A stretch of 24,000 bases of DNA from Comamonadaceae bacterium (GCA_947372745.1 CANBUY010000003.1:1-24000); one strand, 5' to 3'. Shown: positions 1-17,035, numbered from the stretch's first letter. Program-made: numbers and translations. The notes: generated by a model not told the origin, from the letters alone.

Positions 1-716
1 GCGGCACCGGCCTTGTGTTGGGCGACACCGTCAGCTACACCCAAACCAGCGCCAACTTTGCGGACAAAAACGCAGGCCTTGGCAAAACCGTCACCGTCAG
101 CGGCATTCGCCTAAGCGGGCTTGATGGTGCCAACTACAAAGCCAACACCACTACAACCACCACCGCCAGCATCACGCCCAAGGCCATCACTGTCACCGCA
201 ATGGGCATCAACAAAGTTTATGACGCCAGCCTCAATGATGCAGTCACCCTGAAAGCCACCGGCGTGATCAGCGGCGATGTGTTTGGATTGAGCAGCGCTG
301 CGGTATTTGCCGACAAAAACGTCGGTGAATCGAAGCCGGTGACTGTCAGCGGGATCACGCTAACCGGCCTGAATGCAGGGAGCAATCCGATGAACTACAT
401 CATCCGCAACCCCATCACCAACAATAACTCCACCTCAACCACTGCCACCATCACACCCAAAGTAATCGTGGTCACCGCTGCGGGTATCAACAAAGTTTAT
501 GACGGCACGCTCAATGACGAGGTGACTTTGAAAAGCACGGGTCTCATTGAAGGCGATGTGGTGACGCTCACCAAAACGAGTGCGCTCTTTGCGACCACGA
601 CGGTGGGCACGGGCAAAGCAGTCAGTGTCAAAGGCATTGCAATAGAAGGCGCCGATGCGGGTAACTACAAGGCCAACACCACGGCGACGACTTCGGCATC
701 TATCACCGCGCCTTAA
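1..716 (+). CDS. 3' end of a large repeat-rich exoprotein/adhesin (YDG-motif repeats; putative TpsA / filamentous-haemagglutinin-like passenger); 5' end lies outside the window
   Basis: This frame is open from the window edge (codons from nt 3) to TAA 714-716, so the GTG at 15 is only the first start-like codon. The translation shows tandem units with ITPK-x-I-x-VTA-x-GINKVYD(A/G)(S/T)LND-x-VTLK-x-TG-x-I-x-GDV, then FADKN-x-G-x-x-K-x-VTVSGI-x-L-x-G and NYKANTT. It is Thr/Asn/Gly/Val-rich with no Cys, as in secreted beta-rich adhesins. A ShlB/FhaC-type transporter is encoded downstream at 3964. Confidence 0.6.
   Translation, partial: GTGLVLGDTVSYTQTSANFADKNAGLGKTVTVSGIRLSGLDGANYKANTTTTTTASITPKAITVTAMGINKVYDASLNDAVTLKATGVISGDVFGLSSAAVFADKNVGESKPVTVSGITLTGLNAGSNPMNYIIRNPITNNNSTSTTATITPKVIVVTAAGINKVYDGTLNDEVTLKSTGLIEGDVVTLTKTSALFATTTVGTGKAVSVKGIAIEGADAGNYKANTTATTSASITAP
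171..713 (+). repeat. Two tandem ~93-aa (about 279-bp) coding repeats (YDG-type adhesin repeat units) inside the exoprotein gene
   Basis: The ITPK motif recurs at aa 53 and 146 of the listed ORF, and ITAP at 230. GINKVYD(A/G)(S/T)LND recurs at aa 64-75 and 157-168. The DNA stretch atcaacaaagtttatgacg occurs at about 208 and about 487. Confidence 0.6.
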
Positions 717-736
717 ATCTTAGATTAACAAACAGG

Positions 737-820
737 TAAACATAACCTTCAAACCAAACCATTTCAAAACACTTCAAATACCAAAATCAACTTCATAAAT
801 CAAACCACTAAATATTCATC
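737..820 (+). promoter_or_regulatory. G-free, C/A-rich 84-nt leader/promoter region upstream of the first curlin gene, with no Shine-Dalgarno sequence
   Basis: I found no G between G736 and the ATG at 821. TTCAAA occurs at 748, 763 and 773, and TTCATAAA at 792. The stretch is strikingly AT-rich compared with flanking DNA. The exact promoter could not be called. Confidence 0.3.
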
Positions 821-1285
821 ATGAACTATAAATTTAAATCCCTCTTCATTGCCTCTATCTTGGCTCTGGCAACTACGCACTCATTTGCACAGACTGCACC
901 TGCAGTTGGCACCACACTCGGCGACCTTCAAAGTGCAACAACGTTCGATCAAGCCGGGATGGATACAGCTATTCGGGACTCTGTTGGAGAACTCTCTTTA
1001 AATTACGCAGGAGCCTTAACAGGAGGCGTGCCAACACTAACAAAAAGTGCTGCTGTGATCTTGCAAGTATCCGATACCAGCTTCGCATTTATTGAACAAG
1101 TAGCCATCTTAGCTACGGACCTTAATTACGCTGTAATTGATCAAACGGCCGCGGATAACAATGCTTATATCTTGCAGACGGGTTCTCAAAATTATGCTTC
1201 AATTGTTCAAGGTGGTATTGCTCCATCGGTGGCATATATATCTCAAAATGGAGCTACCAATAGAGCCATCATCAATCAAAAGTAA
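821..1285 (+). CDS. Curlin subunit (CsgA/CsgB family), 154 aa, secreted
   Basis: The N-terminal signal peptide is MNYKFKSLFIASILALATTHSFA-Q. The C-terminal half carries curlin repeats of the form Q-x-G-x-x-N-x-A-x-x-x-Q, for example AYILQTGSQNYASIVQ and AYISQNGATNRAIINQ. It lies directly upstream of csgE-csgF-csgG. Confidence 0.8.
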   Translation: MNYKFKSLFIASILALATTHSFAQTAPAVGTTLGDLQSATTFDQAGMDTAIRDSVGELSLNYAGALTGGVPTLTKSAAVILQVSDTSFAFIEQVAILATDLNYAVIDQTAADNNAYILQTGSQNYASIVQGGIAPSVAYISQNGATNRAIINQK

Positions 1286-1300
1286 AACTTGACCCCAAGA

Positions 1301-1374
1301 AAAGAACAGGAATAAACCCCTACCTCCTTGCCTGAAATACGGGGCAATAGTTGAAACTGGGGTGTTCTTTTTTT
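1301..1374 (+). terminator. Possible leaky intrinsic terminator/attenuator between the curlin gene and csgE
   Basis: AAAGAACA (1301-1308) and CCCC (1317-1320) can pair with the contiguous GGGGTGTTCTTT (1359-1370), which is followed by a T7 run (1368-1374). The loop is long and the stem interrupted, so this is not a canonical terminator. Confidence 0.2.
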
Positions 1375-1380
1375 ATCGCC

Positions 1381-1812
1381 ATGATTACCCAAAGATTATT
1401 CCTTTCGGCACTTGCTTTTGCGGCGAGTGGGCTGGTTTGCGTGTATGCGCAATCCCTCCCGCAAGATAATGCAAAAAATAACGACAACGGCATTAGCGGC
1501 CTGATTGTCAACATGACGCGCACGCCTGACGGGCTTGATTTTTACCGCAGCTTTCTGGAGTTTTGGCGTGAAAAGCCGGACAGCGAAAGGTACTCGCTGG
1601 AGATTGGCGAGCGTTCGTCCAAGCGTTTGGGAAACCAGGTGTGGGTGATGTATGGTCAAAAACGAGTATTTACAGCCAACTTACCCTTCAAACTAGACAA
1701 GATCCGAGCCGTTAGTGAGCAGGCAGCCGACACCACGCACGAGGCCTTGATTGCCATGGCGCTGCAGCTAGACGCCCCGCGCGACCCCGACATCGCCGGC
1801 GATGAACTCTGA
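1381..1812 (+). CDS. csgE: Curli production assembly/transport component CsgE
   Basis: GLIVNMTRTPDGLDFYRSFLEFWRE ... IGERSSKRLGNQVWVMYGQKRVF ... PDIAGDEL aligns by eye with E. coli CsgE ([24 protein letters not shown] ... [21 protein letters not shown] ... DLAHDEF). The ATG at 1381 gives a clean signal peptide, MITQRLFLSALAFAASGLVCVYA-Q. The track's TTG at 1351 is an alternative start. Confidence 0.85.
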   Translation: MITQRLFLSALAFAASGLVCVYAQSLPQDNAKNNDNGISGLIVNMTRTPDGLDFYRSFLEFWREKPDSERYSLEIGERSSKRLGNQVWVMYGQKRVFTANLPFKLDKIRAVSEQAADTTHEALIAMALQLDAPRDPDIAGDEL

Positions 1813-1854
1813 GGCCACCCGACGTAACCCATAACTTTTTAAAGAGACTTCTTT

Positions 1855-2301
1855 ATGTTCTATTTAAGGAATAACTTTCGCCCTGCTCTGGTTTGCCCAG
1901 CTATTTTGCTCACGCTAAGCCTTGGCGCAGGTGCCACTGAGATGGTCTACACCCCCATCAACCCCAGCTTTGGCGGCAACCCCAACAATGCACCCGGTTT
2001 GCTTTCTATAGCCCAAGTGCAAAACAGCATGCGGGCGCCGGTCGTTGTCTCTACCGTGGTGCCGCTGACGGCGGTTGAAAAATTCAGCGCCTCACTGAAT
2101 AGTTTGATTTTGAACCGCCTGGCCTCCGAAACCATGGCTACCCTGTTTGGCACCTCCTCCTTGCTTAAAGCGGGCACTTATACGGCGGGCGACTTTACGG
2201 TCACAATTTCGCAGCCGGACAGCAGCAGCAACCTGACCATCGTGACCAGCGACAAGGCTGGAAATTCATCGACTATTGAGATTGCACCAGGTACATTATG
2301 A
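1855..2301 (+). CDS. csgF: Curli assembly component CsgF
   Basis: A signal peptide is followed by YTPINPSFGGNPNNAPGLLSIAQVQNS, matching the E. coli CsgF N-terminus [27 protein letters not shown]. Its stop overlaps the csgG start (ATGA at 2298-2301). Confidence 0.85.
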   Translation: MFYLRNNFRPALVCPAILLTLSLGAGATEMVYTPINPSFGGNPNNAPGLLSIAQVQNSMRAPVVVSTVVPLTAVEKFSASLNSLILNRLASETMATLFGTSSLLKAGTYTAGDFTVTISQPDSSSNLTIVTSDKAGNSSTIEIAPGTL

Positions 2302-3368
2302 GTAGTGCAGACTTCAGCAAGTGCTTGTTGCGAGGGGTTAGCGTGCTGTGCATGGCCGTTTATTTAAGCGCCTGCGGTACAGTGCCTGCCTCCAACGTTA
2401 AATCCAATGCAAAGTTATCCCCGGTCTCGCGCATCACTCTTGATTTAGTCCAGTTGCCCAAGCCTAAAGACAAAATAGCCGTAGCGGTGTACGCCTTTCG
2501 GGACCAAACCGGGCAGTTCAAACCTTCACCTGACAGCTCGTATTCAACCTCTGTCACCCAAGGGGCCGCATCGATGTTGGTCAAGGCCCTCAACGACTCA
2601 GGCTGGTACACACCGGTGGAGCGTGAGGGCTTACAGAACCTGCTGACCGAGCGCAAGATTGTGCGCGCCATTGAGTCCACCACCGAAAAAGGCAAGCCCG
2701 CCATCAACCTGCCCGGCCTGATGCCGGCCAGCCTGATTATTGAAGGCGGTGTGATTGCTTATGAATCCAACGTGCGCACCGGCGGCAAGGGCGCCAACTA
2801 CTTAGGGATTGGTGCCAACGACTCTTACCGTATAGACCAGGTCACCGTCAACCTGCGCATGGTGGATATTCGCAGTGGGCAAGTGCTAGACACCGTGTCG
2901 GTGACCAAAACGATTTACTCCTACCAGTTCAACTCCAGCATTTATGCCTTTGTGTCTTACCAGCGCCTGCTACAAGAAGAAGCGGGTTTTACCACCAATG
3001 AGCCGGCCCAACTGGCGGTGCGCGAAGCCATAGAGTCTGCGGTCATCCACCTCACCGCACAAGGTGTGCGCGACCGGCTGCTTACCCTAGAAAGCGACGA
3101 AGATATCAATGCCCCCGTTATTCAAGCCTACTTAAAAGAGACCCAAGAGAGTGTGCGCGGCGTTCCCACACCTGAGAACGCGCCCAACATTGGGTTTACC
3201 GAACGTTCAGCAAAAAACCAACTCTCAGCCGTGCGCCCGCTCATGCCCCAAGCAGCTGACCCCACCAGCCTGAAGATATCCACCTCGCTCTCTCCGCCAC
3301 CAGAAAAGACCGTTTATGGCGACGACAGTAGTTTTTCAATGAGCGCAACGCAAGAGACATTGCGCTAA
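2298..3368 (+). CDS. csgG: Curli secretion channel lipoprotein CsgG, with a C-terminal extension of roughly 75 aa
   Basis: There is a lipobox, L-S-A-C. Colinear similarity to E. coli CsgG is strong: KIAVAVYAFRDQTGQFKP, GAASMLVKALNDSGWYTPVEREGLQNLLTERKIVRA, IIEGGVIAYESNVRTGGKGANYLGIGA, VTVNLRMVDIRSGQVL and GFTTNEPAQLAVREAIE. The Pro/Ser-rich tail after about aa 280 has no E. coli counterpart. Confidence 0.9.
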   Translation: MSSADFSKCLLRGVSVLCMAVYLSACGTVPASNVKSNAKLSPVSRITLDLVQLPKPKDKIAVAVYAFRDQTGQFKPSPDSSYSTSVTQGAASMLVKALNDSGWYTPVEREGLQNLLTERKIVRAIESTTEKGKPAINLPGLMPASLIIEGGVIAYESNVRTGGKGANYLGIGANDSYRIDQVTVNLRMVDIRSGQVLDTVSVTKTIYSYQFNSSIYAFVSYQRLLQEEAGFTTNEPAQLAVREAIESAVIHLTAQGVRDRLLTLESDEDINAPVIQAYLKETQESVRGVPTPENAPNIGFTERSAKNQLSAVRPLMPQAADPTSLKISTSLSPPPEKTVYGDDSSFSMSATQETLR

Positions 3369-3384
3369 ATAGGTGAATCATTTT

Positions 3385-3960
3385 ATGTTTAATAAAAATT
3401 TCTATCTTTTCCTTTGGGCAGCACTCACCATGCCATCTTTGATGTGCTCTTCAGCGTTTGCTGCAGACATCAATCCTTTTTCAGATTTAACTGCCTTTAA
3501 CTACTTTGTTGACCAGGGGGGTCTAAAGAGCATTGCTCAAATTAACCAAGATGGACCGGATAACTTCAGTGAGATCAATCAAATTTCAGACCCGAGCAGC
3601 GCTTTAGGAAATTTCGCAGAGATCTTTCAAACAGGCAGTTCCAACGAAGCCCATGTAAAGCAAGATGGCCAAATTAACAAAGTGACCATCAATCAAACAG
3701 GTACAGACAACTACGCCATCACAGACCAGGCAGGCACAGCCAACTCTATTGTTTTAACGCAATCGGGCGATGGCAATACCTTTGCAGGCAACCAATACGG
3801 AACTTTTAACAGCATTGAGGTGATCCAGCCGGGGTCGGCACTTTCTACAATCACGATCAATGGCAACCATAATGCAGTTACACTTAATCAAAAGTTTCGC
3901 GGCGAATACAACATCACGCTTACAAGTGACAACATGATCTACACCGTGACCCAGCGCTAA
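3385..3960 (+). CDS. Curlin subunit (CsgA/CsgB family), about 191 aa, with more repeats than the first curlin
   Basis: The signal peptide is MFNKNFYLFLWAALTMPSLMCSSAFA-A. Multiple curlin half-repeats follow: IAQINQDGPDNFSEINQ, AEIFQTGSSNEAHVKQDGQINKVTINQTGTDNYAITDQAGTANSIVLTQSGDGNTFAGNQ. An SD-like AGGTGA (3371-3376) sits 8 nt before ATG 3385. The GTG at 3373 used by the track lies inside that SD and is less likely. Confidence 0.8.
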   Translation: MFNKNFYLFLWAALTMPSLMCSSAFAADINPFSDLTAFNYFVDQGGLKSIAQINQDGPDNFSEINQISDPSSALGNFAEIFQTGSSNEAHVKQDGQINKVTINQTGTDNYAITDQAGTANSIVLTQSGDGNTFAGNQYGTFNSIEVIQPGSALSTITINGNHNAVTLNQKFRGEYNITLTSDNMIYTVTQR

Positions 3961-3963
3961 GCC

Positions 3964-5604
3964 ATGTCACGCCTGCATCCCTACAAAAGTCTTCATCTAC
4001 TTTTTACCCTTCTCTCTACAGCCGCCCTCGCCGCGCCCGATGCGGGGACCTTGCTGCAGCAAATCCCCTCCCCCAATTTGCCAACGCCAGCAACCCCTGC
4101 CCAACCGCGGACAGTGGCGCCCGAAGAGCCCTTGGCACCTCAGGTTTCGGAGCGGTTTTTTGTAAAAACTATTCAGATAGCAGGCAACAAGAAAATATCG
4201 ACGGCCACCCTGCACGCCTTGGTCGCTGATGCTGAGGGAAAAAACCTGACGCTTGAAGAGCTTCAAACCGCAGTTTCCCGAATCAGCGACTACTACCAGC
4301 GCCAAGGCTACCCGCTGGCGCGCGCCATCATTCCGGCGCAAACCATCACGGATGGCTTGGTGAAGGTGCAAATCATTCTGGCTCGCTACGGCGAAATCAA
4401 AGTCAACAACACCAGTGGCGTCAGAGACCGCCTGATAGCCGCGCCACTGGCAGCCCTACAAACAGCACAAGACATAGAACAAGCCCCGCTTGACCGTGCT
4501 TTGTTGCTCATTTCAGACCTGCCTGGCATCTCGCTGAGCTCCAGCTTTACCAAGGGTGAAAGCGTCGACACGTCTGATTTTCAAATCAATGTTGCGGCCT
4601 CACCCCGTGCCTATGGTCAATTAGTGCTTGACGGCTATGGCAGCAGCTATACCGGGCGTGAACGCCTCAGTAGCACAGTGGTGTTCAACGACCCCCTAAA
4701 ACTCAGAAACAGCGACATCCTGAGCGTCAGCGTTTTAAGCTCGGGCCCAGGCATGCGCTACGGGCGCTTGTCTTACGAAGCTTTTTTAACCGGCGATGGG
4801 GTCCGCCTGGGCGGCTCCACGTCATCACTGCAATACCAGGTGCAGGGCAGCTTTGGCACTTCAGGCTCAGAGGGCTCTGCGCAAGTGAGTAGTCTTTGGG
4901 CCAAGCAAACTTTTCTCAGACAGCGCGACTTGAACCTGTATGGCCAACTCCAGTTAGACGCACTCACGCTTGCAGACACCACCTCAGAAGGCATCAACAA
5001 CCGGCGGCTGCAAAACTTCACCGTCACCCTGAATGGGGATGCCAGAGATGTACTGCTGACTGACAGAGAAAATTTCAGCACATGGAACTTGGGTGTCACA
5101 AGGGGGCGTGACTCCCGAGATTCCGAGGGTGAGTTTTTTAGGTTGAATGCCAACCTGAACCGCTTGCAGCGGCTGACAGCAACAGACAGTCTGTATTTCA
5201 ACTACACCCGGCAATGGGCCAACCGCCACCTCGACAGCTCACAACAAATGTCAGTCGCAGGCCCCAACAGCGTGCGCGCCTTTGACACGGGCGTCTCGCC
5301 CAGCGGCGATGGTGCCTCTATGCTCAACGCGGAATACCGGCGTGAACTGGGCACTATCCTGAGTGGCCAACTGACCGGGCTTGTTTTCTATGACAAAGGC
5401 GATGTCACCATCAACAAACATGGATCGGGCGAGAACAACCGTTTTACGCTAAATGGCCCTGGCCTGGGGCTGACCTGGGCAGGTCCTGATTCGTGGAGCG
5501 CCAAAGCTTTTGCGGCAACACCCACCGGAAAGGCAGCCACCGTATCGGGCGCAGGAACAGCAACAGCAACACGGCTATGGATGGAAATAGGTCGGGGGTT
5601 CTGA
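3964..5604 (+). CDS. ShlB/FhaC/HecB-family outer-membrane transporter (TpsB) of a two-partner secretion system
   Basis: A signal peptide (..LLSTAALA-AP) is followed by a POTRA-like segment, FFVKTIQIAGNKKISTATLHALV...LTLEELQTAVSRISDYYQRQGYPLARAIIPAQTITDGLVKVQIILARYGEI. A long beta-barrel-type region contains the family motif NSVRAFD (SVRG[FY]-like) and ends in an aromatic residue (..GRGF). The start lies 3 nt after the curlin stop. Confidence 0.8.
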   Translation: MSRLHPYKSLHLLFTLLSTAALAAPDAGTLLQQIPSPNLPTPATPAQPRTVAPEEPLAPQVSERFFVKTIQIAGNKKISTATLHALVADAEGKNLTLEELQTAVSRISDYYQRQGYPLARAIIPAQTITDGLVKVQIILARYGEIKVNNTSGVRDRLIAAPLAALQTAQDIEQAPLDRALLLISDLPGISLSSSFTKGESVDTSDFQINVAASPRAYGQLVLDGYGSSYTGRERLSSTVVFNDPLKLRNSDILSVSVLSSGPGMRYGRLSYEAFLTGDGVRLGGSTSSLQYQVQGSFGTSGSEGSAQVSSLWAKQTFLRQRDLNLYGQLQLDALTLADTTSEGINNRRLQNFTVTLNGDARDVLLTDRENFSTWNLGVTRGRDSRDSEGEFFRLNANLNRLQRLTATDSLYFNYTRQWANRHLDSSQQMSVAGPNSVRAFDTGVSPSGDGASMLNAEYRRELGTILSGQLTGLVFYDKGDVTINKHGSGENNRFTLNGPGLGLTWAGPDSWSAKAFAATPTGKAATVSGAGTATATRLWMEIGRGF

Positions 5605-5723
5605 CGCTATTTTCTGCTCGCCGAAATAGAACCTAAAAAAAGGGTTTTATCCAGCTTTAAATAAAATCACCTTGCCAGATGATGGGACTATGAACCCTAT
5701 CCCTCATCTCGGCTTTTTTGGAA

Positions 5724-5750: not shown

Positions 5751-5913
5751 CCCGCCAAGCCTTGGTCAATGGAATACCAGGTTTGCGCTCTCCCACTGAC
5801 GGCTGCCTATTTTTGCTCAGCTTAAGTCCCTGCATTTGCAAAGCAACGTTGCAAACAACCCCGCAATCAAAACTCTTGAGCAAGATTGTCTCACCCACCA
5901 AAAGGAGCCCCAA

Positions 5914-7833
5914 ATGGCATTGATGAAGAAGTCTTCCAGCATGACAACACCCCTCTCGACAGAGGGTGCAAAGGCATCTTCTGCCTCAACGCGAGATGCA
6001 GAGGCACAGCGCAAAAAAGCGCGAACACTGGCCAAGCAGCAGCAAGCGGCAGAACGCATTGCTGCGGCGACAGCCCAACTCTCCTCCGGCATTGACAGCG
6101 CCTCCGCTGCTGCGGAGCAGATGAAGCGGGCTTCGGACCAAATCGCCACGGGTGCTGAGGAGGCTTCTGGCGCAGCACAGGTCTCACTGGCTGCTCTTAA
6201 AAATGTAGAGGGAGCGATTGCCCGTCAATTGCAAAATGCAGACATCAGCCAGACCAAGGCAGAAGCCACTCAAACGCTGGTCGCCCAAATCAGTGGCGAA
6301 GTCGCTACGTTGGTGGAAAACGTCAGTATTGCCGCCGAACGCCAGGGCGCGTCGGTCACCATGGTGATTGAACTGGAAAAACAAGCCGCCAACATTGGCG
6401 ATATCGTCAAAGCCGTCGCGCGCATTGCTGATCAAACCAATTTATTGGCCTTGAACGCCGCCATCGAAGCGGCGCGGGCCGGACAACATGGCAAGGGCTT
6501 TGCAGTGGTCGCCGATGAAGTCCGGACCTTGGCGGAAACATCCGAGAAAAGCGCCAAACAAATCCAAGACCTGGTTGGACAAATTCAGCAAGAAGTCAAA
6601 GTGATCGCTGAAGGCATGGGAACTTCTGTCGAGCGTGTTTTAAACGAGGTGGAGAATGGGAAAAAAATCACTCTGCAACTGGAGCAAATTCGAGTTGACG
6701 CGATTGAAATCGTACGGGGCGTGCGTGAAATTGCAGTAGGTGCCCAGCAGTCCACCAATGCGGCCAAACAGGCACTGCGCGGTTCAGAAGATATCGCTGC
6801 GGCCGCTGAAGAGCAGTCTGCGGCCGCTGAAGAATCCGCCAAAACCGTGGCACAACAAAGCCAGGCACTCGCAGAGAGCATGCAAGGCTCGCAAAGCTTG
6901 GCTGAGTTGTCAGAAGACCTGAAGAACTCCACCGATGTCGCCAAAAGCGCCGAAGAAGTGGCCTCGGCCGCTGAGCAGTTGTCGTCTGCCGTGCAGGAAA
7001 TCACACGCTCCGGCGCCCAAATCATGGCCGCTTTGGACCAAATTCTTAAAGGCGCGCAAGTGCAGTCTGCGGGCACTGAAGAAGTGGCAGCCGCCATTTC
7101 CCAGATCGAAAAGGGCACTGAAGTTGCCCAAAAACTTGGCAAGACCAGTGGCGAAAAAGTCACCGCCATCAAGAGTTTGCTAGACATCAACAAGATCAGC
7201 ATCGACAGCTTGGTCACCGGCATTTCATCGTCAGTGGATGCCTCACGCGACAGTCTAAAACAGATCAAAGAGCTTGAACTGGTGTCGCGCCGTATTGACA
7301 AAATTGTTGATGCCATCACCACCGTCTCCATTCAAACCAATATGCTGGCCGTGAATGGCTCGATTGAAGCCGCCCGTGCCGGTGAATTCGGCAAGGGTTT
7401 TGTGGTGGTCGCCACCGACATTCGCAACTTGGCCCACGATTCGGCTGAAAATGCCGACCGCATCAAAGACTTGGTGCGCTCGGTGCAAGACCAAATCGGC
7501 ATTGTCGGACGTGACCTCAATGAGATCATGGCCACTGCATCGGCAGCCGCTGAAAAGGCCAAATCGATTACTTCCAGTCTGATCGCCATTGAAACTGACA
7601 TTGGTGCGGTGGACGTGGGCACCCGCGAAATTTTGACGGCAGCCAACGAGATTGCTGGCGCTATTACCCAAGTTAAAGCGGGTGTGGACCAAATCTCTGC
7701 CGCTGCCCAGCAGGCCGATAAAGCGGCCAACGAAGCCGCCACAGTCGCCAAGCAGCAGTCACAAGCCTCGGAGCAGTTATCGGCCGCGGTTGAGGAAATC
7801 GCCTCGCTCGCTGACGAACTTCAAAGCGCATGA
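5914..7833 (+). CDS. Soluble methyl-accepting chemotaxis protein with two tandem signalling (MA) hairpin domains (DosM-like)
   Basis: I saw no hydrophobic TM segment. There are two conserved hairpin tips: ADQTNLLALNAAIEAARAGQHGKGFAVVADEVRTLAE (nt about 6427-6540) and SIQTNMLAVNGSIEAARAGEFGKGFVVVATDIRNLAH (nt about 7330-7435), about 300 aa apart. The rest is Ala/Glu/Gln-rich and coiled-coil-like. ATG 5914 is preceded by GGAG at 5904-5907. The track's TTG at 5836 has no RBS. Confidence 0.85.
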   Translation: MALMKKSSSMTTPLSTEGAKASSASTRDAEAQRKKARTLAKQQQAAERIAAATAQLSSGIDSASAAAEQMKRASDQIATGAEEASGAAQVSLAALKNVEGAIARQLQNADISQTKAEATQTLVAQISGEVATLVENVSIAAERQGASVTMVIELEKQAANIGDIVKAVARIADQTNLLALNAAIEAARAGQHGKGFAVVADEVRTLAETSEKSAKQIQDLVGQIQQEVKVIAEGMGTSVERVLNEVENGKKITLQLEQIRVDAIEIVRGVREIAVGAQQSTNAAKQALRGSEDIAAAAEEQSAAAEESAKTVAQQSQALAESMQGSQSLAELSEDLKNSTDVAKSAEEVASAAEQLSSAVQEITRSGAQIMAALDQILKGAQVQSAGTEEVAAAISQIEKGTEVAQKLGKTSGEKVTAIKSLLDINKISIDSLVTGISSSVDASRDSLKQIKELELVSRRIDKIVDAITTVSIQTNMLAVNGSIEAARAGEFGKGFVVVATDIRNLAHDSAENADRIKDLVRSVQDQIGIVGRDLNEIMATASAAAEKAKSITSSLIAIETDIGAVDVGTREILTAANEIAGAITQVKAGVDQISAAAQQADKAANEAATVAKQQSQASEQLSAAVEEIASLADELQSA

Positions 7834-7863
7834 TGCGCCAGTCCATGCACTTAGGAGAACGCT

Positions 7864-9447
7864 ATGACTACTGAAGCTCTGACAAGCTTGCAAGATTCGG
7901 CGCTTGACGCTGATACCACTGCGCGTGAGGCGGTGTCCGACATTCGCCAGTTTGTGACGTTTATCGTGGGCACTGAAGTGTTCGCGGTCGACATGGCCCC
8001 GGTGCAAGAGATCATCCGGGTCCCAGACGTCGTGAGGGTGCCCCTGGCCCCGCGTACGCTGGACGGACTGGCCAATCTGCGCGGCAAGGTGCTACCCATC
8101 GTCAGCTTGCGCCGCATATTCGGGTTTGATGAACGCGCTTATGACGATGCCACCCGCGCCGTTGTCATCGACCAAGGGCAGCCCCTGGGCTTCGTGGTGG
8201 ACCGAGTGGTGAGTGTGGTCAGCGTTGACCCGAAGCAAATCGAAGGTGCTGGCGCCATCAGCGCCACGGTCAATACGGATCTGGTCTCCGGCCTGCTCAA
8301 GGATGTAGGTGGCTACCCCATGATCATGGTGCTCGACTTCGGCAAACTTATCGCTGCCGAATTTGCGGGTGCACTGGCTTCAGCAGTTCAACACCATGCG
8401 GGATCCACATCAGATGCTGATCATTTGAAGCAAACTGAGGAACTCAAAGCCAGCGATGAATTGCACCTAGTGAGCTTTGAGGTGGCGCATCAGGAGTACG
8501 CCATCGTGATCGACGATGTGCAGGAAATTGTGCAGGTCCCTGAGTTGATCGTGCAAGTGCCGCACTCTGAGTCACATGTGCTGGGGGTCATGACCTTGCG
8601 CAACCGCTTGCTGCCACTGGTTTCTTTGCGTCGCATGTTTGGCCTGTCCAACCGTGCGGCCGATGAGAACAGCCGCATCGTGGTGGTGTCTCTGGGCGGC
8701 GCATCGGTAGGCGTGGTGATGGACAGCGTCAACGAGGTGTTGCGTGTAGCGCGCACTGATGTGGACGCCATGCCCGTGCTGCTGGCCAAAGAAGGGGACT
8801 TGTCTGAAATTTCGCAAATTTGTCGTCTCGACGGTGGAAAGCGATTGGTTTCAATTTTGTCGGTGGGCAATATGTTTCGCCACGCAGCCATCAAGGCTGC
8901 TTTAACTAGCGTGGACACCATGAACGATAAGCAAACCCAAAACACCTCAAGCGCCCAGGATGACGACAGGAGCGATGACGAGGAGCAAGTCGTTGTTTTC
9001 TTGTTGGGCAAAGAAGAGTTTGGCGTACCCATTGACAGCGTTCAAGAGATTGTGCGCGTCGCGGAGCAGCTGACTCATGTGCCCAAGGCACCGCCCGCCG
9101 TAGAAGGCGTGATTAATCTGCGGGGTGCGGTGTTGCCAGTGATGGACTTGCGTCGTCGCTTGGGTCTGACCCAGGTAGAACGAAGTGACCAGCAACGCAT
9201 CATGGTGTTTTTGGTGGATGGGGTGCGCACCGGCTTTATTGTGGACTCGGTGGTTGAAGTGCTGAAAATTCACAAGTCAACCATTGAGCCAGCGCCACGC
9301 TTGTCGGGTGAGCAAAACAAGTTACTGGCACGCATGGCGAACATTGAGAAGCAAAAACGCATGGTGCAACTGATTGAGCCGCGTCACCTGATCGAGCAGC
9401 AAGAGCGCGAAGACCTGGCCCAACTCGCGCAACACGCCAACGCTTAA
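7864..9447 (+). CDS. Scaffold protein with three tandem CheW domains
   Basis: Three copies of the CheW signature are present: FVTFIVGTEVFAVDMAPVQEIIRVP...LANLRGKVLPIVSLRRIFG, LVSFEVAHQEYAIVIDDVQEIVQVP...VMTLRNRLLPLVSLRRMFG, and VVVFLLGKEEFGVPIDSVQEIVRVA...VINLRGAVLPVMDLRRRLG. AGGAG at 7853-7857 precedes the ATG. Confidence 0.9.
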   Translation: MTTEALTSLQDSALDADTTAREAVSDIRQFVTFIVGTEVFAVDMAPVQEIIRVPDVVRVPLAPRTLDGLANLRGKVLPIVSLRRIFGFDERAYDDATRAVVIDQGQPLGFVVDRVVSVVSVDPKQIEGAGAISATVNTDLVSGLLKDVGGYPMIMVLDFGKLIAAEFAGALASAVQHHAGSTSDADHLKQTEELKASDELHLVSFEVAHQEYAIVIDDVQEIVQVPELIVQVPHSESHVLGVMTLRNRLLPLVSLRRMFGLSNRAADENSRIVVVSLGGASVGVVMDSVNEVLRVARTDVDAMPVLLAKEGDLSEISQICRLDGGKRLVSILSVGNMFRHAAIKAALTSVDTMNDKQTQNTSSAQDDDRSDDEEQVVVFLLGKEEFGVPIDSVQEIVRVAEQLTHVPKAPPAVEGVINLRGAVLPVMDLRRRLGLTQVERSDQQRIMVFLVDGVRTGFIVDSVVEVLKIHKSTIEPAPRLSGEQNKLLARMANIEKQKRMVQLIEPRHLIEQQEREDLAQLAQHANA

Positions 9448-9464
9448 AGACAAGACTGCGGACG

Positions 9465-10550
9465 ATGATCAAGCTGCTAATCGTTGATGACTCTGCGTTG
9501 ATGCGCCGACAGCTGTCGGCCATGTTCGACGCAGAGCCTGATTTTGAGATTCGTCTGGCGCGCAACGGGCGGGAGGCCGTGGAGGAAAACCGCACATTCA
9601 TGCCCGATGTTGTCACCCTGGACATCAATATGCCAGAGATGGACGGCCTGACCGCGCTGTCCCTCATCATGGGAGACCGACCAGTGCCGGTGGTGATGAT
9701 CTCATCGCTGACGGAGAAAGGGGCTTTGGCCACCTTTGAGGCCTTGAATCTGGGTGCCGTTGATTACGTGGTCAAACCAGGGGGCACCATCTCACTGGCC
9801 ATCGACACCATTCGGGCCACCGTGGTCAGCAAAGTGCGCACGGCGGCCAAAGCGCGGCTGAAAGCTTTTCGCCCAGCGGCGGTATCAAGCCCTGTGCCAC
9901 CGGTCGTCCGGCAGGTGGCGTCACCCACTACTGTGGCTGACACGAGTAGTGCGATGTCCAGTAAAGGCACGGGGCGCGAAGGTATCGTTTTGATCGGCGT
10001 CTCCACAGGCGGTCCCCGCACGCTGGAGTTGATATTGCCCAACCTACCGGCTCGATTTCCTTGGCCCATACTGGTCGCCCAACACATGCCGGCGAGCTTT
10101 ACACAGTCATTTGCACAGCGTATGAATGGCATGTGCGCTATGGAAGTGGTCGAGGCCAACCGTCCCATGACGCTTGAGGCCGGCACCATCTACATTGCCA
10201 AAGGCGGTGCCGATATGCAGGTGGTGCGGCGCGCAGGCAAGCTTAATGTGATCGCCAAGCCAGAAAGTGCAGACTTTTTGTGGCATCCGTCCGTTGAGCT
10301 ATTGGGGCAGTCGGTGCTTGAACATGTGCCCTGTTCCAACGTACTGGGCATCATGCTCACGGGCATGGGCAACGATGGGGCCGATGCCTTCACCGCCATC
10401 AAAAAAAGAGGCGGCCGCACCATAGCCGAATCTGAAGAGTCTTGTGTTGTGTTTGGCATGCCCTCCGAGCTGATCAGCCGGGGCGGCGCCACAGTGACCT
10501 TGCACGCAGAAAAAATTGCAGCCCAAGTCAAAACCTGGCTTGACTGCTGA
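9465..10550 (+). CDS. cheB: Protein-glutamate methylesterase/glutaminase CheB (REC + CheB catalytic domain)
   Basis: The N-terminal receiver is MIKLLIVDDSALMRR...DVVTLDINMPEMDGL...VVKP. The C-terminal methylesterase carries GVSTGGP, HMP and MLTGMGNDGA motifs. Confidence 0.9.
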   Translation: MIKLLIVDDSALMRRQLSAMFDAEPDFEIRLARNGREAVEENRTFMPDVVTLDINMPEMDGLTALSLIMGDRPVPVVMISSLTEKGALATFEALNLGAVDYVVKPGGTISLAIDTIRATVVSKVRTAAKARLKAFRPAAVSSPVPPVVRQVASPTTVADTSSAMSSKGTGREGIVLIGVSTGGPRTLELILPNLPARFPWPILVAQHMPASFTQSFAQRMNGMCAMEVVEANRPMTLEAGTIYIAKGGADMQVVRRAGKLNVIAKPESADFLWHPSVELLGQSVLEHVPCSNVLGIMLTGMGNDGADAFTAIKKRGGRTIAESEESCVVFGMPSELISRGGATVTLHAEKIAAQVKTWLDC

Positions 10551-10562
10551 AAAAGGAAAAAT

Positions 10563-11186
10563 ATGGCCTTCATTAAAAAAAATACCTCACCCTCTCGCGA
10601 CGTTGAAGAGCGCGTGCTTGTGCGCGACTGCGCGGGTTTGATTGAACAGTTGACCGACGCTGACCCGGCCATTCGGCGCTGGGCTGCACGCGATTTATTG
10701 AGCTATCCAGAAGCAACTGCCGCATTGGTCGCACGCATTCAAGCCGAAGGAGAACTCTCGGTGCGAGAGGTGATACTGACCACCCTGACCCGTCTCGGCG
10801 GCCCGATTGCAGTGGCCGGCTTGGTGGAGTGCTTGCGCAGCGAAGACGCCCAAGTGCGCAACGAAGCCATCATGGCCATGAAGGCGCTGCCCGACGAGGT
10901 AGCGCCCATCATGGGCGGCTTACTCCTGGATACCGATCCGGACGTGCGCATCATGGCGGTGAATATTCTTGAATCCTTGCGGCATCCCAAAGTAGAAGAA
11001 TGGCTGATAGCCGTCATTGACCGAGACCAGGTGGTCAACGTCTGCGGCACAGCCGTTGATTTGCTGGGGGAATTGGGCTCACCCGATTCGCATGAAGCCC
11101 TCGAACGCCTGAAGCTTCGGTATGCCGACGAGCCCTACATTCAGTTTGCCGCTGAACTGGCGTTGAAACGCACGGCAAAGGCATAA
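10563..11186 (+). CDS. HEAT-repeat (PBS-lyase-type) protein embedded between cheB and cheR
   Basis: Repeated helical units carry D-x-x-VR signatures: DPAIRRWAARDLL, EDAQVRNEAIMAMKAL, DPDVRIMAVNILESL and VNVCGTAVDLLGELG. An AGGA RBS lies at 10553-10556. Confidence 0.7.
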   Translation: MAFIKKNTSPSRDVEERVLVRDCAGLIEQLTDADPAIRRWAARDLLSYPEATAALVARIQAEGELSVREVILTTLTRLGGPIAVAGLVECLRSEDAQVRNEAIMAMKALPDEVAPIMGGLLLDTDPDVRIMAVNILESLRHPKVEEWLIAVIDRDQVVNVCGTAVDLLGELGSPDSHEALERLKLRYADEPYIQFAAELALKRTAKA

Positions 11187-11193
11187 AATTATT

Positions 11194-12036
11194 ATGGCAA
11201 AAATCATCATTAGCGAAGATGACTTCCTGAAGTTTCAGGAGTACTTTTACCGCAAGACGGGCATTCAGTTTGAGCACTCCAAACGCTACTTTGTTGACAA
11301 GCGCTTGGTAGAGCGTATTGAGGCCACCGGCAACGACAGCTTTCGGAGCTACTTTGCAATGCTCAGATTCCAGGCGTCAGGCACCGAGTTGCAGGCCTTG
11401 GTCAATTCGATGACCATCAATGAGACCTACTTTTTTCGGGAAGAGTACCAGTTTCATTGCTTGGTCAATTCCATCCTGCCAGAGATTGTGGCCAACAAGA
11501 AAAACGGCGATCCGATTCGCATCTGGGTCATCCCCTCTTCGTCGGGCGAAGAGCCTTACTCTATTGCCATGTGCTTGCTTGAGCGCTGGCCCGGCATCCA
11601 CAAGTGGGATGTAGAGATTATTTCCTCGGACATTGACACCAAAATTCTGGCACAAGCCCGCGCGGGTTTGTACTCAGAGCGTTCGGTCAAGCATGTTCCT
11701 CGGGCCTACATGTTGAAATACTTTCAACAAACGCCGCAGGGCTACCAACTCAACGAAGATTTGCGCAGTGCCGTTGAATTTACACACATCAACCTGATGG
11801 AGGCCTCCGAAGTGCGGCCCTACCGGAACTTTGATGTTATTTTTTGTCGCAACTTGCTCATCTACTTTGATGATGTTTCCCGCAAGCAGGCGGCCGAAAC
11901 TTTTTATGACGCCTTGCGTCCCGGTGGCTTCATTTGCCTTGGGCACTCAGAGTCCATGAGCCGTATTTCTGCACTCTACAAGATTCGAAAGTTTCCAGAG
12001 GCGATCGTTTATCAAAAACCTGGGGATGCCAAATGA
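11194..12036 (+). CDS. cheR: Chemotaxis protein methyltransferase CheR
   Basis: The N-terminal helical domain (FQEYFYRKTGIQF) and INETYFFRE are present. The SAM-binding motif is IRIWVIPSSSGEEPYSIAM, with FCRNLLIYFD also present. Confidence 0.9.
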   Translation: MAKIIISEDDFLKFQEYFYRKTGIQFEHSKRYFVDKRLVERIEATGNDSFRSYFAMLRFQASGTELQALVNSMTINETYFFREEYQFHCLVNSILPEIVANKKNGDPIRIWVIPSSSGEEPYSIAMCLLERWPGIHKWDVEIISSDIDTKILAQARAGLYSERSVKHVPRAYMLKYFQQTPQGYQLNEDLRSAVEFTHINLMEASEVRPYRNFDVIFCRNLLIYFDDVSRKQAAETFYDALRPGGFICLGHSESMSRISALYKIRKFPEAIVYQKPGDAK

Positions 12037-12407
12037 AACATATTTTGATTGTGGACGATGCTGCCACCGTGCGCATGTACCACCGCACCATTCTTGAAGC
12101 TGCAGGCTATACAGTCGACGAAGCCATTAACGGCATTGAGGCGCTTGAAAAAGCCCTCAATAAGCACTACGACTTGTACTTGGTGGATGTGAACATGCCT
12201 TTGCTGGATGGTTACTCGTTTGTGCGCGAGTTGCGCGGCCATGCCGACATACCTCAGGCACCCGCCGTGATGATCTCCACGGAGGCCAAGGCCAGCGATC
12301 AAACCAAGGCCTACCAAGCGGGCGCCAATCTCTACATCATCAAGCCTACCCGACCTGATGTCCTACTTAATAATGTTCGACTCCTGCTCGGGGAGAGCGG
12401 CATATGA
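12033..12407 (+). CDS. cheY: CheY-like single-domain response regulator
   Basis: MKHILIVDDAATVRM...DLYLVDVNMPLLDGY...ISTE...YIIKP carries the DD, D, T and K receiver residues. ATG 12033 overlaps the cheR stop (ATGA). The track's longer ORF from 11934 would overlap cheR by about 100 nt and adds non-receiver sequence. Confidence 0.85.
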   Translation: MKHILIVDDAATVRMYHRTILEAAGYTVDEAINGIEALEKALNKHYDLYLVDVNMPLLDGYSFVRELRGHADIPQAPAVMISTEAKASDQTKAYQAGANLYIIKPTRPDVLLNNVRLLLGESGI

Positions 12408-15166: not shown

Positions 15167-15402
15167 TGGCAATCACGTACAAAAAAAATATGGCCGTGCT
15201 TGAAGGAGCCGTCAGTGTTGAAGACGCTGAAGACTTGCTGGCGTGGCTTCAAAAAACACCGAAAGCTCGGCTTGATTTTTCAGCCTGCACCCATCTTCAC
15301 GCTGCCAATCTACAGGTGCTGATGGCCGCCAGACTCCCTGTGGCTTCTTGGCCACATGACAATGATTTAAAAGCATGGCTGCATTCAGCCTTGCGTAATT
15401 GA
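15166..15402 (+). CDS. Small (78-79 aa) hypothetical protein, possibly a truncated STAS / anti-sigma-antagonist-like fold
   Basis: GAAGGAG at 15151-15157 precedes ATG 15166, which overlaps the cheA stop (TGATG). The pattern VLEGAVSVEDAEDLLAWL...ARLDFSACTHLHAANLQVLMAA resembles STAS-domain cores. This is weak, by-eye evidence only. Confidence 0.45.
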   Translation: MAITYKKNMAVLEGAVSVEDAEDLLAWLQKTPKARLDFSACTHLHAANLQVLMAARLPVASWPHDNDLKAWLHSALRN

Positions 15403-15415
15403 ATAAGGAATAAGC

Positions 15416-15790
15416 ATGGCTAAAACAATTATGGTCGTTGACGATTCAACCACCATGCTGATGAGTTTGAAGAACAGCCTGGAGATCGCAGGCTTCTGCG
15501 TCATAACAGCCAGTGATGGCGCTCTTGCCCTGGAGAAATTGAAAACTGGCCCCAGGCCGGATTTGATCATCACCGACATCAACATGCCCAATATGGGTGG
15601 CATTGAATTCATTGGTAAGGCACGCGCGCTTCCCGGCTTTCGGTTCATCCCGATTTTGGTCCTCACCACCGAGAGTATGCAAGCCAAACGTGATGAGGCT
15701 AAAAAACTGGGGGCTACCGGTTGGTTAGTCAAACCTGTCAGCGGCGCAGATTTAACCAAAATTATTAAACAGGTATTGCCCGGTGCATGA
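15416..15790 (+). CDS. cheY: Second CheY-like single-domain response regulator
   Basis: MAKTIMVVDDSTTMLMSL...DLIITDINMPNMGGIEF...ILVLTTE...GWLVKP is a receiver domain. An AAGGAA RBS lies at 15405-15410. Confidence 0.85.
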   Translation: MAKTIMVVDDSTTMLMSLKNSLEIAGFCVITASDGALALEKLKTGPRPDLIITDINMPNMGGIEFIGKARALPGFRFIPILVLTTESMQAKRDEAKKLGATGWLVKPVSGADLTKIIKQVLPGA

Positions 15791-17010: not shown

Positions 17011-17035
17011 TACGACTGACTGAAACGGGACTGGC

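What the first reader, a model, noticed from the sequence alone, without database searches (positions are those of the whole stretch)
1..5604. Complete curli export module nested between a TpsA-like exoprotein gene and its TpsB transporter
The gene order, read directly, is YDG-repeat exoprotein 3' end, curlin, csgE, csgF, csgG, curlin, then a ShlB/FhaC-type TpsB. All are co-directional, with tiny junctions (an ATGA overlap at 2298 and a 3-nt gap at 3961-3963). Two mechanistically unrelated outer-membrane export systems are therefore interleaved in what looks like one transcription unit: two-partner secretion (T5bSS) and curli nucleation-precipitation (T8SS). An established precedent for adhesin machinery inserted between tpsA and tpsB is the Bordetella fhaB-fimBCD-fhaC locus, where fimbrial chaperone-usher genes sit between them and the two adhesins are co-regulated. 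I know of no description of a curli equivalent. The layout also differs from the enterobacterial divergent csgBAC/csgDEFG layout, and csgD, csgC and csgH are absent from the locus. It suggests co-production of an amyloid fibre and a filamentous adhesin. A more speculative reading is a functional dependency between them.
Basis: partly seen in the sequence, partly recalled or inferred. Interest (0 to 1): 0.65.

Follow-up and report, generated by a model that had tools for sequence, protein, structure and literature searches.

The report
Curli operon nested inside TPS pair
A lake bacterium has a complete set of curli amyloid-fibre export genes sitting between a giant adhesin gene and the gene for that adhesin's outer-membrane transporter; the layout recurs in three other uncultured relatives and has not been described, which suggests that the fibre and the adhesin are made together.

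Summary
Pfam/NCBIfam confirm the co-directional order: YDG-repeat exoprotein 3' end, curlin, CsgE, CsgF, CsgG, curlin, TpsB. The ATGA overlap and the 3-nt junction are as described. Independent assemblies from several lakes cover every junction.

The exoprotein is cut by the contig start, so its TPS domain cannot be read here. In two complete orthologous loci (L024, L184) the gene at that position is a full TpsA (ESPR + TPS domain with NPNGI + YDG repeats). In about 35 metagenomic relatives of this TpsB, a TpsA (30 of them with detectable YDG repeats) directly precedes the TpsB with no csg genes. The curli block is therefore a rare insertion into a cognate tpsA-tpsB pair.

CsgG and TpsB trees fit one origin of the nesting (window, L022, L024, L184). 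More broadly, 13 of 18 evaluable loci in this Burkholderiales curli clade have a TPS system within 10 kb. These fall into at least four architectures and three TpsB lineages. None of 68 curli loci outside the clade has one.

The most likely reading is a single adhesion/matrix operon that co-produces an amyloid fibre and a fibrillar adhesin through two independent machines. Co-transcription and any physical dependency are untested. No publication of such a linkage was found. I class it as a new variant of known kinds, of moderate interest.

The parts
1..716 (+). 3' end (237 aa) of a YDG-repeat exoprotein, inferred to be the TpsA partner. It has three YDG stalk domains running to the stop codon. 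The gene is cut by the contig start.
   Evidence: Pfam YDG 7.9e-41 with 3 stretches. It matches the C-terminal YDG region of the complete TpsA proteins of L024 (50% identity) and L184 (48%). There is no barrel and no RTX signal.
717..820 (+). 104-nt A/C-rich, almost G-free intergenic leader before curlin1. This is the only place inside the module where an internal promoter could fit.
   Evidence: Sequence read. It is unstructured (MFE -2.2 kcal/mol). No terminator-like site was found. It is not conserved in L024.
821..1285 (+). curlin1: a small secreted curlin (154 aa) with about 5 Q-x-G-x-x-N-x-A-x3-Q type repeats.
   Evidence: Curlin_rpt 2.5e-07. Repeats listed. Orthologues occur only in the TPS-linked loci L022, L024, L184, L186 and L026.
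1351..1812 (+). csgE (periplasmic curli specificity/capping factor).
   Evidence: PF10627 1.8e-18, full-length match.
1855..2301 (+). csgF (surface coupling factor that inserts into the CsgG channel).
   Evidence: PF10614 2.7e-28. The N-terminal NPSFGGNPNN aligns with the E. coli CsgF constriction segment in PDB 6l7a.
2298..3368 (+). csgG (lipoprotein secretion channel) with an extra C-terminal tail of about 88 aa. Its start overlaps the csgF stop (ATGA).
   Evidence: PF03783 1.5e-69. Residues 16-268 match E. coli CsgG structures at 3e-69, and the tail has no match. Lipobox LSAC is at residues 23-26.
3385..3960 (+). curlin2: a secreted curlin of 191 aa (195 aa from the GTG at 3373) with about 6-7 repeats. 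It is the closer of the two to CsgB/CsgA.
   Evidence: Curlin_rpt 3.7e-14. NCBIfam CsgB 1.2e-18 and CsgA 7.9e-13. Repeats listed.
3964..5604 (+). tpsB: an Omp85-family two-partner-secretion transporter (two POTRA domains plus a 16-strand barrel). It starts 3 nt after the curlin2 stop.
   Evidence: POTRA_2 plus ShlB. AF2 model pLDDT 82. The best structural matches are CdiB 6wim (E 1e-26) and FhaC 4ql0 (E 3e-25).
5591..5650 (+). Terminator-like hairpins at and just after the tpsB stop; the likely 3' end of the unit.
   Evidence: Scan hit at 5591-5605. The AUAGAACCU...GGGUUUUAU hairpin appears in the fold of 5585-5700. A 231-nt gap precedes the next gene.

Best explanation
This is a seven-gene surface-adhesion module: tpsA(YDG)-curlin1-csgE-csgF-csgG-curlin2-tpsB. 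A complete curli (type VIII) export set was inserted, once in evolution, into the short spacer of a cognate tpsA-tpsB (type Vb) pair. The module has since been inherited or moved as a unit.

The two machines work independently.
- TpsA is a fibrillar adhesin with an N-terminal TPS domain and a stalk of YDG repeats. It crosses the inner membrane by Sec and is threaded through TpsB.
- The two curlins cross by Sec, are handed by CsgE to the CsgG channel capped by CsgF, and polymerise outside the cell as amyloid.

Because tpsB lies at the 3' end of the curli genes, with overlapping or few-nucleotide junctions, TpsB can only be made when the curli genes are transcribed. Adhesin export and amyloid-fibre production are therefore hard-wired to occur together.

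Shown here: gene identities, order, junctions, conservation and phylogeny. Inferred: the window's own TPS domain, co-transcription, co-production and the adhesive role.
For: - Domain calls for all seven genes.
- Fold-level match of TpsB to CdiB/FhaC, and sequence matches of CsgG and CsgF to solved E. coli structures.
- Junctions of -4, 4-16 and 3 nt from csgF to tpsB. No terminator-like sites or stable hairpins lie between genes; the only one is at the tpsB stop.
- Complete nested loci exist with a full TpsA (ESPR, TPS with NPNGI, YDG): L024 and L184. L022 has the same order at 89% TpsB identity.
- The curlin2-to-tpsB gap is -4 or 14 nt in L024 (depending on the tpsB start codon) and 7 nt in L184.
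- Of 62 metagenome loci with relatives of this TpsB, 35 have a TpsA ending within 1.5 kb upstream of it (37 at any distance, 30 of those with detectable YDG repeats), and none has a csg gene. The pair is therefore cognate and the curli block is an insertion.
- The nested CsgG proteins form a 99/98 clade together with L186. The four nested TpsB proteins form one clade at 91/63.
- The flanks of the module differ. Window and L022 have an F9 chemosensory cluster. L024 has a histidine kinase and response regulator upstream and type IV pilus genes downstream. L184 has an integrase fragment and pheST. The seven genes therefore travel together.
- Other TpsA ORFs in this genome combine TPS and YDG domains (C198, C9).
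- Metatranscriptome contigs at 95-99% identity cover parts of csgG and tpsB.
Against: - The window's own tpsA 5' part is missing. No contig end overlaps C3, and the candidates C198 and C9 are unproven.
- There are no RNA data across any junction. The metatranscriptome contigs are short, few and could be DNA carry-over.
- The 104-nt leader before curlin1 could hold its own promoter, so tpsA may be a separate transcript.
- In L022 the curlin2-tpsB gap is 127 nt, so tight coupling is not universal.
- All carriers of the nested form are uncultured, so neither fibres nor an adhesin have been observed.
Confidence: 0.7

Rival explanations
1. Physical or functional dependency. The YDG-stalk TpsA would bind, nucleate, cap or anchor the curli fibres, forming a composite amyloid-adhesin organelle. 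Alternatively the two secretion machines would cooperate, for example the CsgG tail docking with TpsB. Known analogues are CdrA binding Psl and EtpA binding flagellar tips.
For: - Curli and TPS genes have been brought together repeatedly and apparently independently. 13 of 18 evaluable loci of the Burkholderiales CsgG clade are TPS-linked, against 0 of 68 outside it.
- The linked loci show at least four architectures and three TpsB lineages. The AU test rejects a single TpsB clade for the five curli-fused loci (p = 0.0005).
- The curlin1 family is found only in loci with a YDG-type TPS system, and in five of them it lies next to tpsA or at the head of the operon.
- Precedents of TpsA adhesins that bind another extracellular polymer: CdrA-Psl (PMC2847200) and EtpA-flagella (PMC10284417).
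Against: - There is no direct evidence of contact.
- Five clade members with full flanks have curli but no TPS (L182, L183, L185, L187, L190).
- About 35 relatives have the YDG TPS pair without curli, so neither system needs the other.
- Linkage is equally well explained by co-regulation of matrix genes.
Confidence: 0.12
2. Neutral juxtaposition. The curli operon simply landed between tpsA and tpsB within a variable island of surface-structure genes. The genes would be separately transcribed and the order would carry no selective meaning.
For: - Curli of this type is patchy: 4 of 401 genomes of the family, and absent from two complete same-genus genomes.
- An integrase fragment flanks L184.
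- Type IV pilus clusters and other adhesin genes crowd these regions.
- Window and L022 are mosaic across the locus.
Against: - The nested order has been retained while TpsB diverged to 38-40% and CsgG to 62-65% identity.
- Junctions of a few nt, or a 4-nt overlap (14 nt at an alternative start), into tpsB occur in three of the four nested loci.
- There are no terminators between genes.
- TPS systems of different lineages sit at the same 3' position of sister curli operons (L186 versus the nested loci).
Confidence: 0.13
3. The TpsB serves the curli system rather than the YDG exoprotein, for example by exporting a curlin or assisting CsgG assembly. The exoprotein would use another transporter.
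For: - tpsB is coupled to curlin2 by a 3-nt gap.
- The genome has four other TpsB genes.
- In the CsgG clade that holds the nested loci, a tpsB always follows curlin2.
Against: - Neither curlin has a TPS domain.
- Relatives of this TpsB are almost always directly next to a TpsA, usually one with YDG repeats, and have no curli.
- L024 has no other TpsB within 10 kb for its TpsA.
- Canonical curli needs no Omp85-type partner (established knowledge of the E. coli system).
Confidence: 0.03
4. Assembly or binning artefact: chimeric contig C3 joins unrelated loci.
For: The MAG has 217 contigs and 6.4% estimated contamination. Depth is raised over the repeat region 1-600.
Against: Error-free Logan contigs from other runs span each junction. 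The same order is found in L022, L024 and L184, which come from unrelated projects.
Confidence: 0.02

Closest known systems
Bordetella pertussis fhaB/fimABCD/fhaC operon
   Same: Biogenesis genes for a second, unrelated adhesive fibre lie between a tpsA adhesin gene and its tpsB. The downstream tpsB is expressed together with the inserted genes (PMC11019879).
   Different: In Bordetella the inserted system is chaperone-usher fimbriae; here it is curli (type VIII, amyloid). The TpsA here is a YDG-repeat stalk protein rather than FHA. The organisms are environmental and uncultured. Regulation is unknown.
Curli systems: E. coli/Salmonella csgBAC-csgDEFG and the betaproteobacterial csg operons surveyed by Dueholm et al. 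2012 (PMC3521004)
   Same: CsgE, CsgF, CsgG and two curlin-repeat subunits are present. CsgG residues 16-268 and the CsgF N-terminal segment match the solved E. coli proteins. Lack of csgC and csgD is typical of Betaproteobacteria.
   Different: All genes lie in one direction in a single block. The subunit genes bracket the machinery genes. CsgG has a tail of about 88 aa. The block is embedded in a TPS pair, which that survey does not mention.
Burkholderia bcpAIOB and other TPS operons with extra genes (hmw1ABC, hxuABC, cdiBCAI)
   Same: Accessory genes can sit between or beside tpsA and tpsB, and the tpsA-then-tpsB order occurs (PMC5422565).
   Different: Those extra genes serve the TpsA itself (immunity, glycosylation, haem uptake). 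Here the extra genes are a self-sufficient second secretion system.
Matrix- or filament-binding TpsA adhesins: P. aeruginosa CdrA and ETEC EtpA
   Same: These are TPS-secreted adhesins that act on another extracellular polymer: Psl polysaccharide (PMC2847200) and flagellar tips (PMC10284417). They are models for how a TpsA could work with curli.
   Different: There is no genetic nesting with the partner polymer's genes. No binding has been shown here. The passenger architecture differs (beta-helix rather than a YDG stalk).

Membership tests
Curli / type VIII secretion system | CsgG-family outer-membrane lipoprotein channel | tested here: met
   PF03783 1.5e-69. Matches E. coli CsgG structures at 3e-69 over residues 16-268. 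Lipobox LSAC.
Curli / type VIII secretion system | CsgE and CsgF accessory proteins, with the CsgF N-terminal channel-binding segment | tested here: met
   PF10627 1.8e-18 and PF10614 2.7e-28. NPSFGGNPNN aligns to NPNFGGNPNN of CsgF in 6l7a.
Curli / type VIII secretion system | Secreted subunits built of curlin repeats (major subunit plus nucleator) | tested here: met
   Curlin_rpt in both ORFs. Repeats listed. CsgB/CsgA NCBIfam hits fall below the equivalog cut-offs. Which of the two is the nucleator is not resolved.
Curli / type VIII secretion system | Formation of extracellular amyloid fibres (Congo red / ThT binding) | not testable with these tools
   Needs expression in a curli-free laboratory strain.
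Two-partner secretion (type Vb) | TpsB: Omp85-family 16-strand barrel preceded by two POTRA domains | tested here: met
   POTRA_2 plus ShlB. AF2 model pLDDT 82 with two POTRA-like alpha/beta units and a barrel. Top fold matches are CdiB and FhaC.
Two-partner secretion (type Vb) | Conserved loop-6 (V/I)RG(Y/F) motif of Omp85/TpsB proteins | tested here: inconclusive
   The sequence is VRAF (V437 and R438 are invariant in 31 relatives). Gly is replaced by Ala; the consequence is unknown. The motif itself is recalled from the literature.
Two-partner secretion (type Vb) | TpsA substrate with an N-terminal TPS domain (NPNG motif) | tested here: inconclusive
   The window's gene lacks its 5' part. 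Orthologues at the same position in L024 and L184 have ESPR plus TPS, and L024 shows the NPNGI motif. TPS+YDG ORFs exist in this genome on C198 and C9 with NPNGV.
Two-partner secretion (type Vb) | Cognate genes adjacent / in one operon | tested here: met
   Not adjacent here, but in 35 relatives a TpsA (mostly with YDG repeats) ends within 1.5 kb upstream of the orthologous TpsB. Nested TpsB and CsgG co-diverge.
fhaB-fim-fhaC-type nested adhesin operon | Genes for a second adhesive fibre located between tpsA and tpsB | tested here: met
   Gene order in the window, L024 and L184.
fhaB-fim-fhaC-type nested adhesin operon | Inserted genes are chaperone-usher fimbrial genes | tested here: not met
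   The inserted genes are csgE/F/G plus curlins. This is analogous in layout, not a member of that family.
fhaB-fim-fhaC-type nested adhesin operon | Shown co-transcription / co-regulation | not testable with these tools
   Only spacing and the absence of terminators support it. The metatranscriptome covers no junction.

The most novel reading that the evidence does not exclude
Curli and two-partner-secretion adhesins would form one composite surface organelle in freshwater and soil Burkholderiales. The YDG-stalk TpsA would bind, cap or anchor the amyloid fibre (or the small curlin1 would act as its adaptor). That would explain why TPS systems of at least three unrelated lineages have been recruited again and again to curli operons. 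It would be the first functional link between type V and type VIII secretion.
Probability: 0.12. Interest if true: 0.8.

Novelty: new variant of a known kind. Interest (0 to 1): 0.55.

Why it matters
Curli and TPS adhesins are two of the main protein components of Gram-negative biofilm matrices. [quoted passage not shown]

This locus and its relatives show a conserved seven-gene operon-like module in which the TPS transporter gene sits at the end of a curli operon. They also show a statistically strong, repeatedly evolved genomic linkage between the two systems in one bacterial clade.

This gives a concrete, testable hypothesis of co-regulated or cooperating amyloid and adhesin production in abundant lake and soil bacteria. 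One cultured carrier of a related architecture exists (Actimicrobium sp. CCI2.3). The finding also extends the Bordetella fha/fim paradigm to another fibre type, and it widens the known diversity of curli operon structure.

Tried and rejected
- Joining C3 to another contig failed. There are no k-mer overlaps of 21-127 nt, and no blastn hit of the first 720 nt elsewhere in the genome.
- Logan contigs from four lake runs are too fragmented in the repeat region to walk upstream.
- An exact-protein look-up of curlin1 found only a 1.2-kb contig.
- The genome of L022 has no detectable copy of the YDG 3' end.
- The first metagenome scan with the single TpsB protein found nothing. The second, with a 4-sequence alignment, worked.
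- RNA evidence: only one metatranscriptome holds about 9% of the sampled words. Its short contigs cover pieces of csgG and tpsB but no junction.
- I rejected the hypothesis that every locus of the clade is TPS-linked. Five loci with full 10-kb flanks lack TPS.
- I rejected the hypothesis of one common TpsB ancestor for all curli-fused loci. The AU test gives p = 0.0005, and the L186 TpsB belongs to another lineage.
- My first CsgG extraction for L102 was faulty (branch length 10). It was corrected.
- The tblastn screen with the window's TpsB missed divergent TpsBs (L028, L033). I replaced it with an HMM screen.
- The same-genus complete genomes have neither the module nor the neighbouring chemosensory cluster, so no empty site could be defined.

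Full report
**1. What is in the window**

The first 5.6 kb holds seven co-directional ORFs. Pfam assigns them as follows, and NCBIfam agrees:
- three YDG domains (3-716, open at the 5' end)
- Curlin_rpt (821-1285)
- CsgE (1351-1812)
- CsgF (1855-2301)
- CsgG (2298-3368)
- Curlin_rpt (3373/3385-3960)
- POTRA_2 plus ShlB (3964-5604)

Details of the individual genes:
- CsgG residues 16-268 match the solved E. coli CsgG at 3e-69. An 88-residue tail has no counterpart.
- CsgF keeps the NPxFGGNPNN segment that plugs into CsgG in PDB 6l7a.
- Both curlins have signal peptides and 5-7 Q/N-ladder repeats.
- An AlphaFold model of the last ORF (pLDDT 82) is most similar to the TpsB transporters CdiB and FhaC (E 1e-26 and 3e-25).

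- ATGA overlap at 2298.
- TAA-GCC-ATG at 3958-3966.
- 4 nt between csgG and the first possible curlin2 start, or 16 nt to the ATG at 3385, which has an AGGTGA Shine-Dalgarno.

No terminator-like site or stable hairpin lies in any internal gap. The only such elements sit at and just after the tpsB stop.

**2. Is it real?**

The window is the first 24 kb of contig C3 of a 217-contig lake-water MAG (86% complete, 6.4% contamination). The exoprotein gene is therefore cut by an assembly break.

The order itself is not an artefact:
- Error-free Logan contigs from other lake metagenomes span 673-1861, 1909-3868 and 3320-4026.
- Three unrelated assemblies show the same order (section 4).

**3. Is the upstream protein a TpsA, and is this TpsB its partner?**

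The 237 residues visible are YDG repeats up to the stop codon. YDG is a Pfam stalk domain of fibrillar adhesins (PMC9210967). There is no autotransporter barrel.

Within this genome:
- There are four TPS-domain ORFs, and all run off contig ends. Two of them (C198, C9) combine TPS and YDG and have no tpsB upstream.
- Two other contigs (C30, C213) start with a YDG-protein 3' end directly followed by a tpsB.

Among 62 metagenome loci that encode relatives of the window's TpsB:
- 37 have a TpsA upstream and 35 of these end within 1.5 kb of the TpsB. 30 of the 37 have detectable YDG repeats.
- Seven have the TpsA downstream.
- None has any csg gene.

Contiguous tpsA(YDG)-tpsB is thus the normal state of this TPS lineage, and the curli block is an insertion into it.

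I could not join C3 to its 5' part. By similarity to the complete orthologues, C198 is the best candidate: 58% identity to the L024 TpsA over 938 aa and 47% to L184. C9 is second.

**4. Conservation of the nested order**

A scan of one genome per species and context look-ups of CsgG homologues gave three further nested loci.

- L022, a betaproteobacterial lake MAG. TpsB is 89% identical. The order is curlin1-csgEFG-curlin2-tpsB, followed by the same chemosensory cluster. The contig is cut at curlin1.
- L024, a Comamonadaceae MAG, complete. It runs: histidine kinase, FixJ/LuxR-type response regulator, TpsA of 1437 aa (ESPR, TPS with NPNGI, six YDG), curlin1, csgE, csgF, csgG, curlin2, TpsB.
- L184 (GCA_040400935.1), complete. 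TpsA is 1880 aa (ESPR, TPS, Glug, YDG). It is followed by curlin1, csgEFG, curlin2 and TpsB, then an integrase fragment and pheST.

The curlin2-to-tpsB spacing is 3 nt (window), -4 or 14 nt (L024, depending on the tpsB start codon), 7 nt (L184) and 127 nt (L022).

Phylogeny:
- In a CsgG tree the four nested loci plus L186 form a clade (99/98).
- In a TpsB tree the four nested proteins form one clade (91/63).

The nesting most likely arose once. It persisted while TpsB diverged to about 38-40% identity. The flanking genes differ between the three lineages, so the seven genes behave as one transferable module.

**5. A wider pattern**

I screened 82 curli loci with home-made TpsB and TPS-domain HMMs, made homology checks and ran ten further context look-ups. 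These show TPS systems within 10 kb of csgG in 13 of 18 loci of one Burkholderiales CsgG clade that have enough flank. None of 68 curli loci outside it has one (Nitrosomonas, Chromobacteriaceae, Alphaproteobacteria, Bacteroidota and others).

Statistics:
- Fisher p = 3e-11, with L031 counted inside the clade.
- Chance expectation is about 3% per locus.
- These tests ignore shared ancestry.

The linkage takes at least four forms:
- Nested: four loci (window, L022, L024, L184).
- Curli operon, then tpsB, then tpsA(YDG): L186.
- Curli, then tpsA(YDG), an unknown 564-aa gene, then tpsB: L026.
- Curli with a convergent YDG tpsA: L181.
- "Type B": curli, OmpR-type regulator, EpsA-type LuxR regulator (TIGR03020), an unknown secreted protein of about 460-520 aa, tpsB, tpsA. 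Found in L028 (the isolate Actimicrobium sp. CCI2.3), L025, L033, L102, L189 and L191. L023 and L101 end inside the regulator genes.

The TpsBs of these forms belong to at least three lineages:
- Type B is separated by a branch of about 3 substitutions per site.
- The L186 TpsB groups with non-curli TpsBs of the family (100/97).
- An AU test rejects one clade for the five curli-fused TpsBs (p = 0.0005).

Linkage is not obligatory. Five clade members with full flanks lack TPS.

**6. Mechanism**

The best-supported reading is co-production by two autonomous machines.
- The YDG-stalk adhesin is exported by Sec and TpsB.
- The curlins are exported by Sec, CsgE and CsgG-CsgF, and polymerise outside the cell.

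Placing tpsB behind curlin2 ties adhesin export to curli transcription, much as fhaC is expressed with fimBCD in Bordetella (PMC11019879).

This rests on family membership, spacing and conservation. Transcription has not been observed. The only metatranscriptome signal is a few short contigs on csgG and tpsB at 95-99% identity.

A physical partnership is compatible with the repeated recruitment but has no direct support. In that reading the TpsA would bind or anchor the curli fibre, as CdrA binds Psl (PMC2847200) or EtpA binds flagellar tips (PMC10284417). I give it about 12%.

**7. Comparison with the literature**

- The absence of csgC/csgD and a non-enterobacterial layout are already described for Betaproteobacteria (PMC3521004), so that part of the finding is ordinary.
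- Extra genes inside TPS operons are known: bcpAIOB, hmw1ABC, hxuABC (PMC5422565). So is the fha/fim nesting.
- Full-text searches for curli together with TPS terms found no description of a curli-TPS locus.

I therefore class this as a new variant of known kinds, not a new kind of system.

**8. Verdict**

- Interest is moderate (0.55). Specialists in secretion and biofilm matrix would find the conserved nesting, and especially the repeated curli-TPS linkage, unexpected and testable. All evidence is genomic, and the carriers of the nested form are uncultured.

Noticed in passing
window 821-4149 versus L022 1-3473: Window and L022 are 96.7% identical in DNA from inside tpsB (4149) through the chemosensory cluster (CheW3 protein 99.8%). 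csgE-csgG are only 83% identical in DNA. curlin1 is 56% and curlin2 46% identical in protein. There is no DNA similarity at all across the CsgG tail, curlin2 and the tpsB 5' end (3198-4149). The surface-exposed subunits are hypervariable, or have been exchanged by recombination, within a near-identical backbone.
   Followed up: partly
window 3102-3368; CsgG of L181-L191: CsgG proteins of this clade carry C-terminal tails of very different length (total 326 to 574 aa, against 277 in E. coli). The window's tail has no PDB match and is only about 33-47% identical to that of L022, while the core is 80-93% identical.
   Followed up: partly
L023, L025, L028, L181, L182, L183, L185, L187, L190, L191 (upstream of csgE); L024 13433-15475: Most curli loci of the clade lie directly downstream of a type IV pilus / MSHA-like cluster (MshE-type ATPase, T2SSF, secretin, pseudopilins). 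Three kinds of surface appendage genes are therefore clustered.
   Followed up: no
L028 12039-15227 and counterparts in L025, L033, L102, L183, L189, L191: There is a conserved trio downstream of the curlin gene: an OmpR-type response regulator, an EpsA-type LuxR regulator (TIGR03020, above cut-off) and a secreted protein of about 460-520 aa with no family match. These usually precede tpsB-tpsA. The unknown protein is duplicated in L033.
   Followed up: partly
L026 16884-18578; L164 4797-5717; L176 289-1200: An unannotated gene of about 564 aa with no Pfam/NCBIfam match sits between tpsA and tpsB in several loci. It is a possible new TPS accessory protein.
   Followed up: no
L181 15931-21299: The YDG-TpsA next to this curli locus is followed by large TPR / glycosyltransferase family 41 genes. 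These recall the HMW1C-type glycosylation of TPS adhesins.
   Followed up: no
window 821-1285 and 3385-3960: The two curlin genes have much lower GC (0.44) and GC3 (0.36 and 0.48) than the flanking genes (GC3 0.61-0.69).
   Followed up: partly
own genome contigs C9, C30, C49, C55, C58, C198, C213, C61: The MAG encodes at least four TpsA genes (all broken at contig ends), five TpsB genes, a 1830-aa YDG protein on C49, and an extra curlin1-like ORF on C61 (10725-11045, 38% identity) away from any csg machinery.
   Followed up: partly
L184 13928-15113: A DUF3987 gene and a truncated phage-type integrase lie between the nested module and pheST/ihfA-like genes. This suggests the module sits on an integrated element in that genome.
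   Followed up: no
window 5836-17800: Directly downstream lies a complete chemosensory cluster: a soluble double-hairpin MCP, a triple CheW, CheB, a HEAT protein, CheR, CheA, CheY, a second MCP and a ParA-like ATPase. It is conserved next to the module in L022 but absent from same-genus complete genomes.
   Followed up: partly
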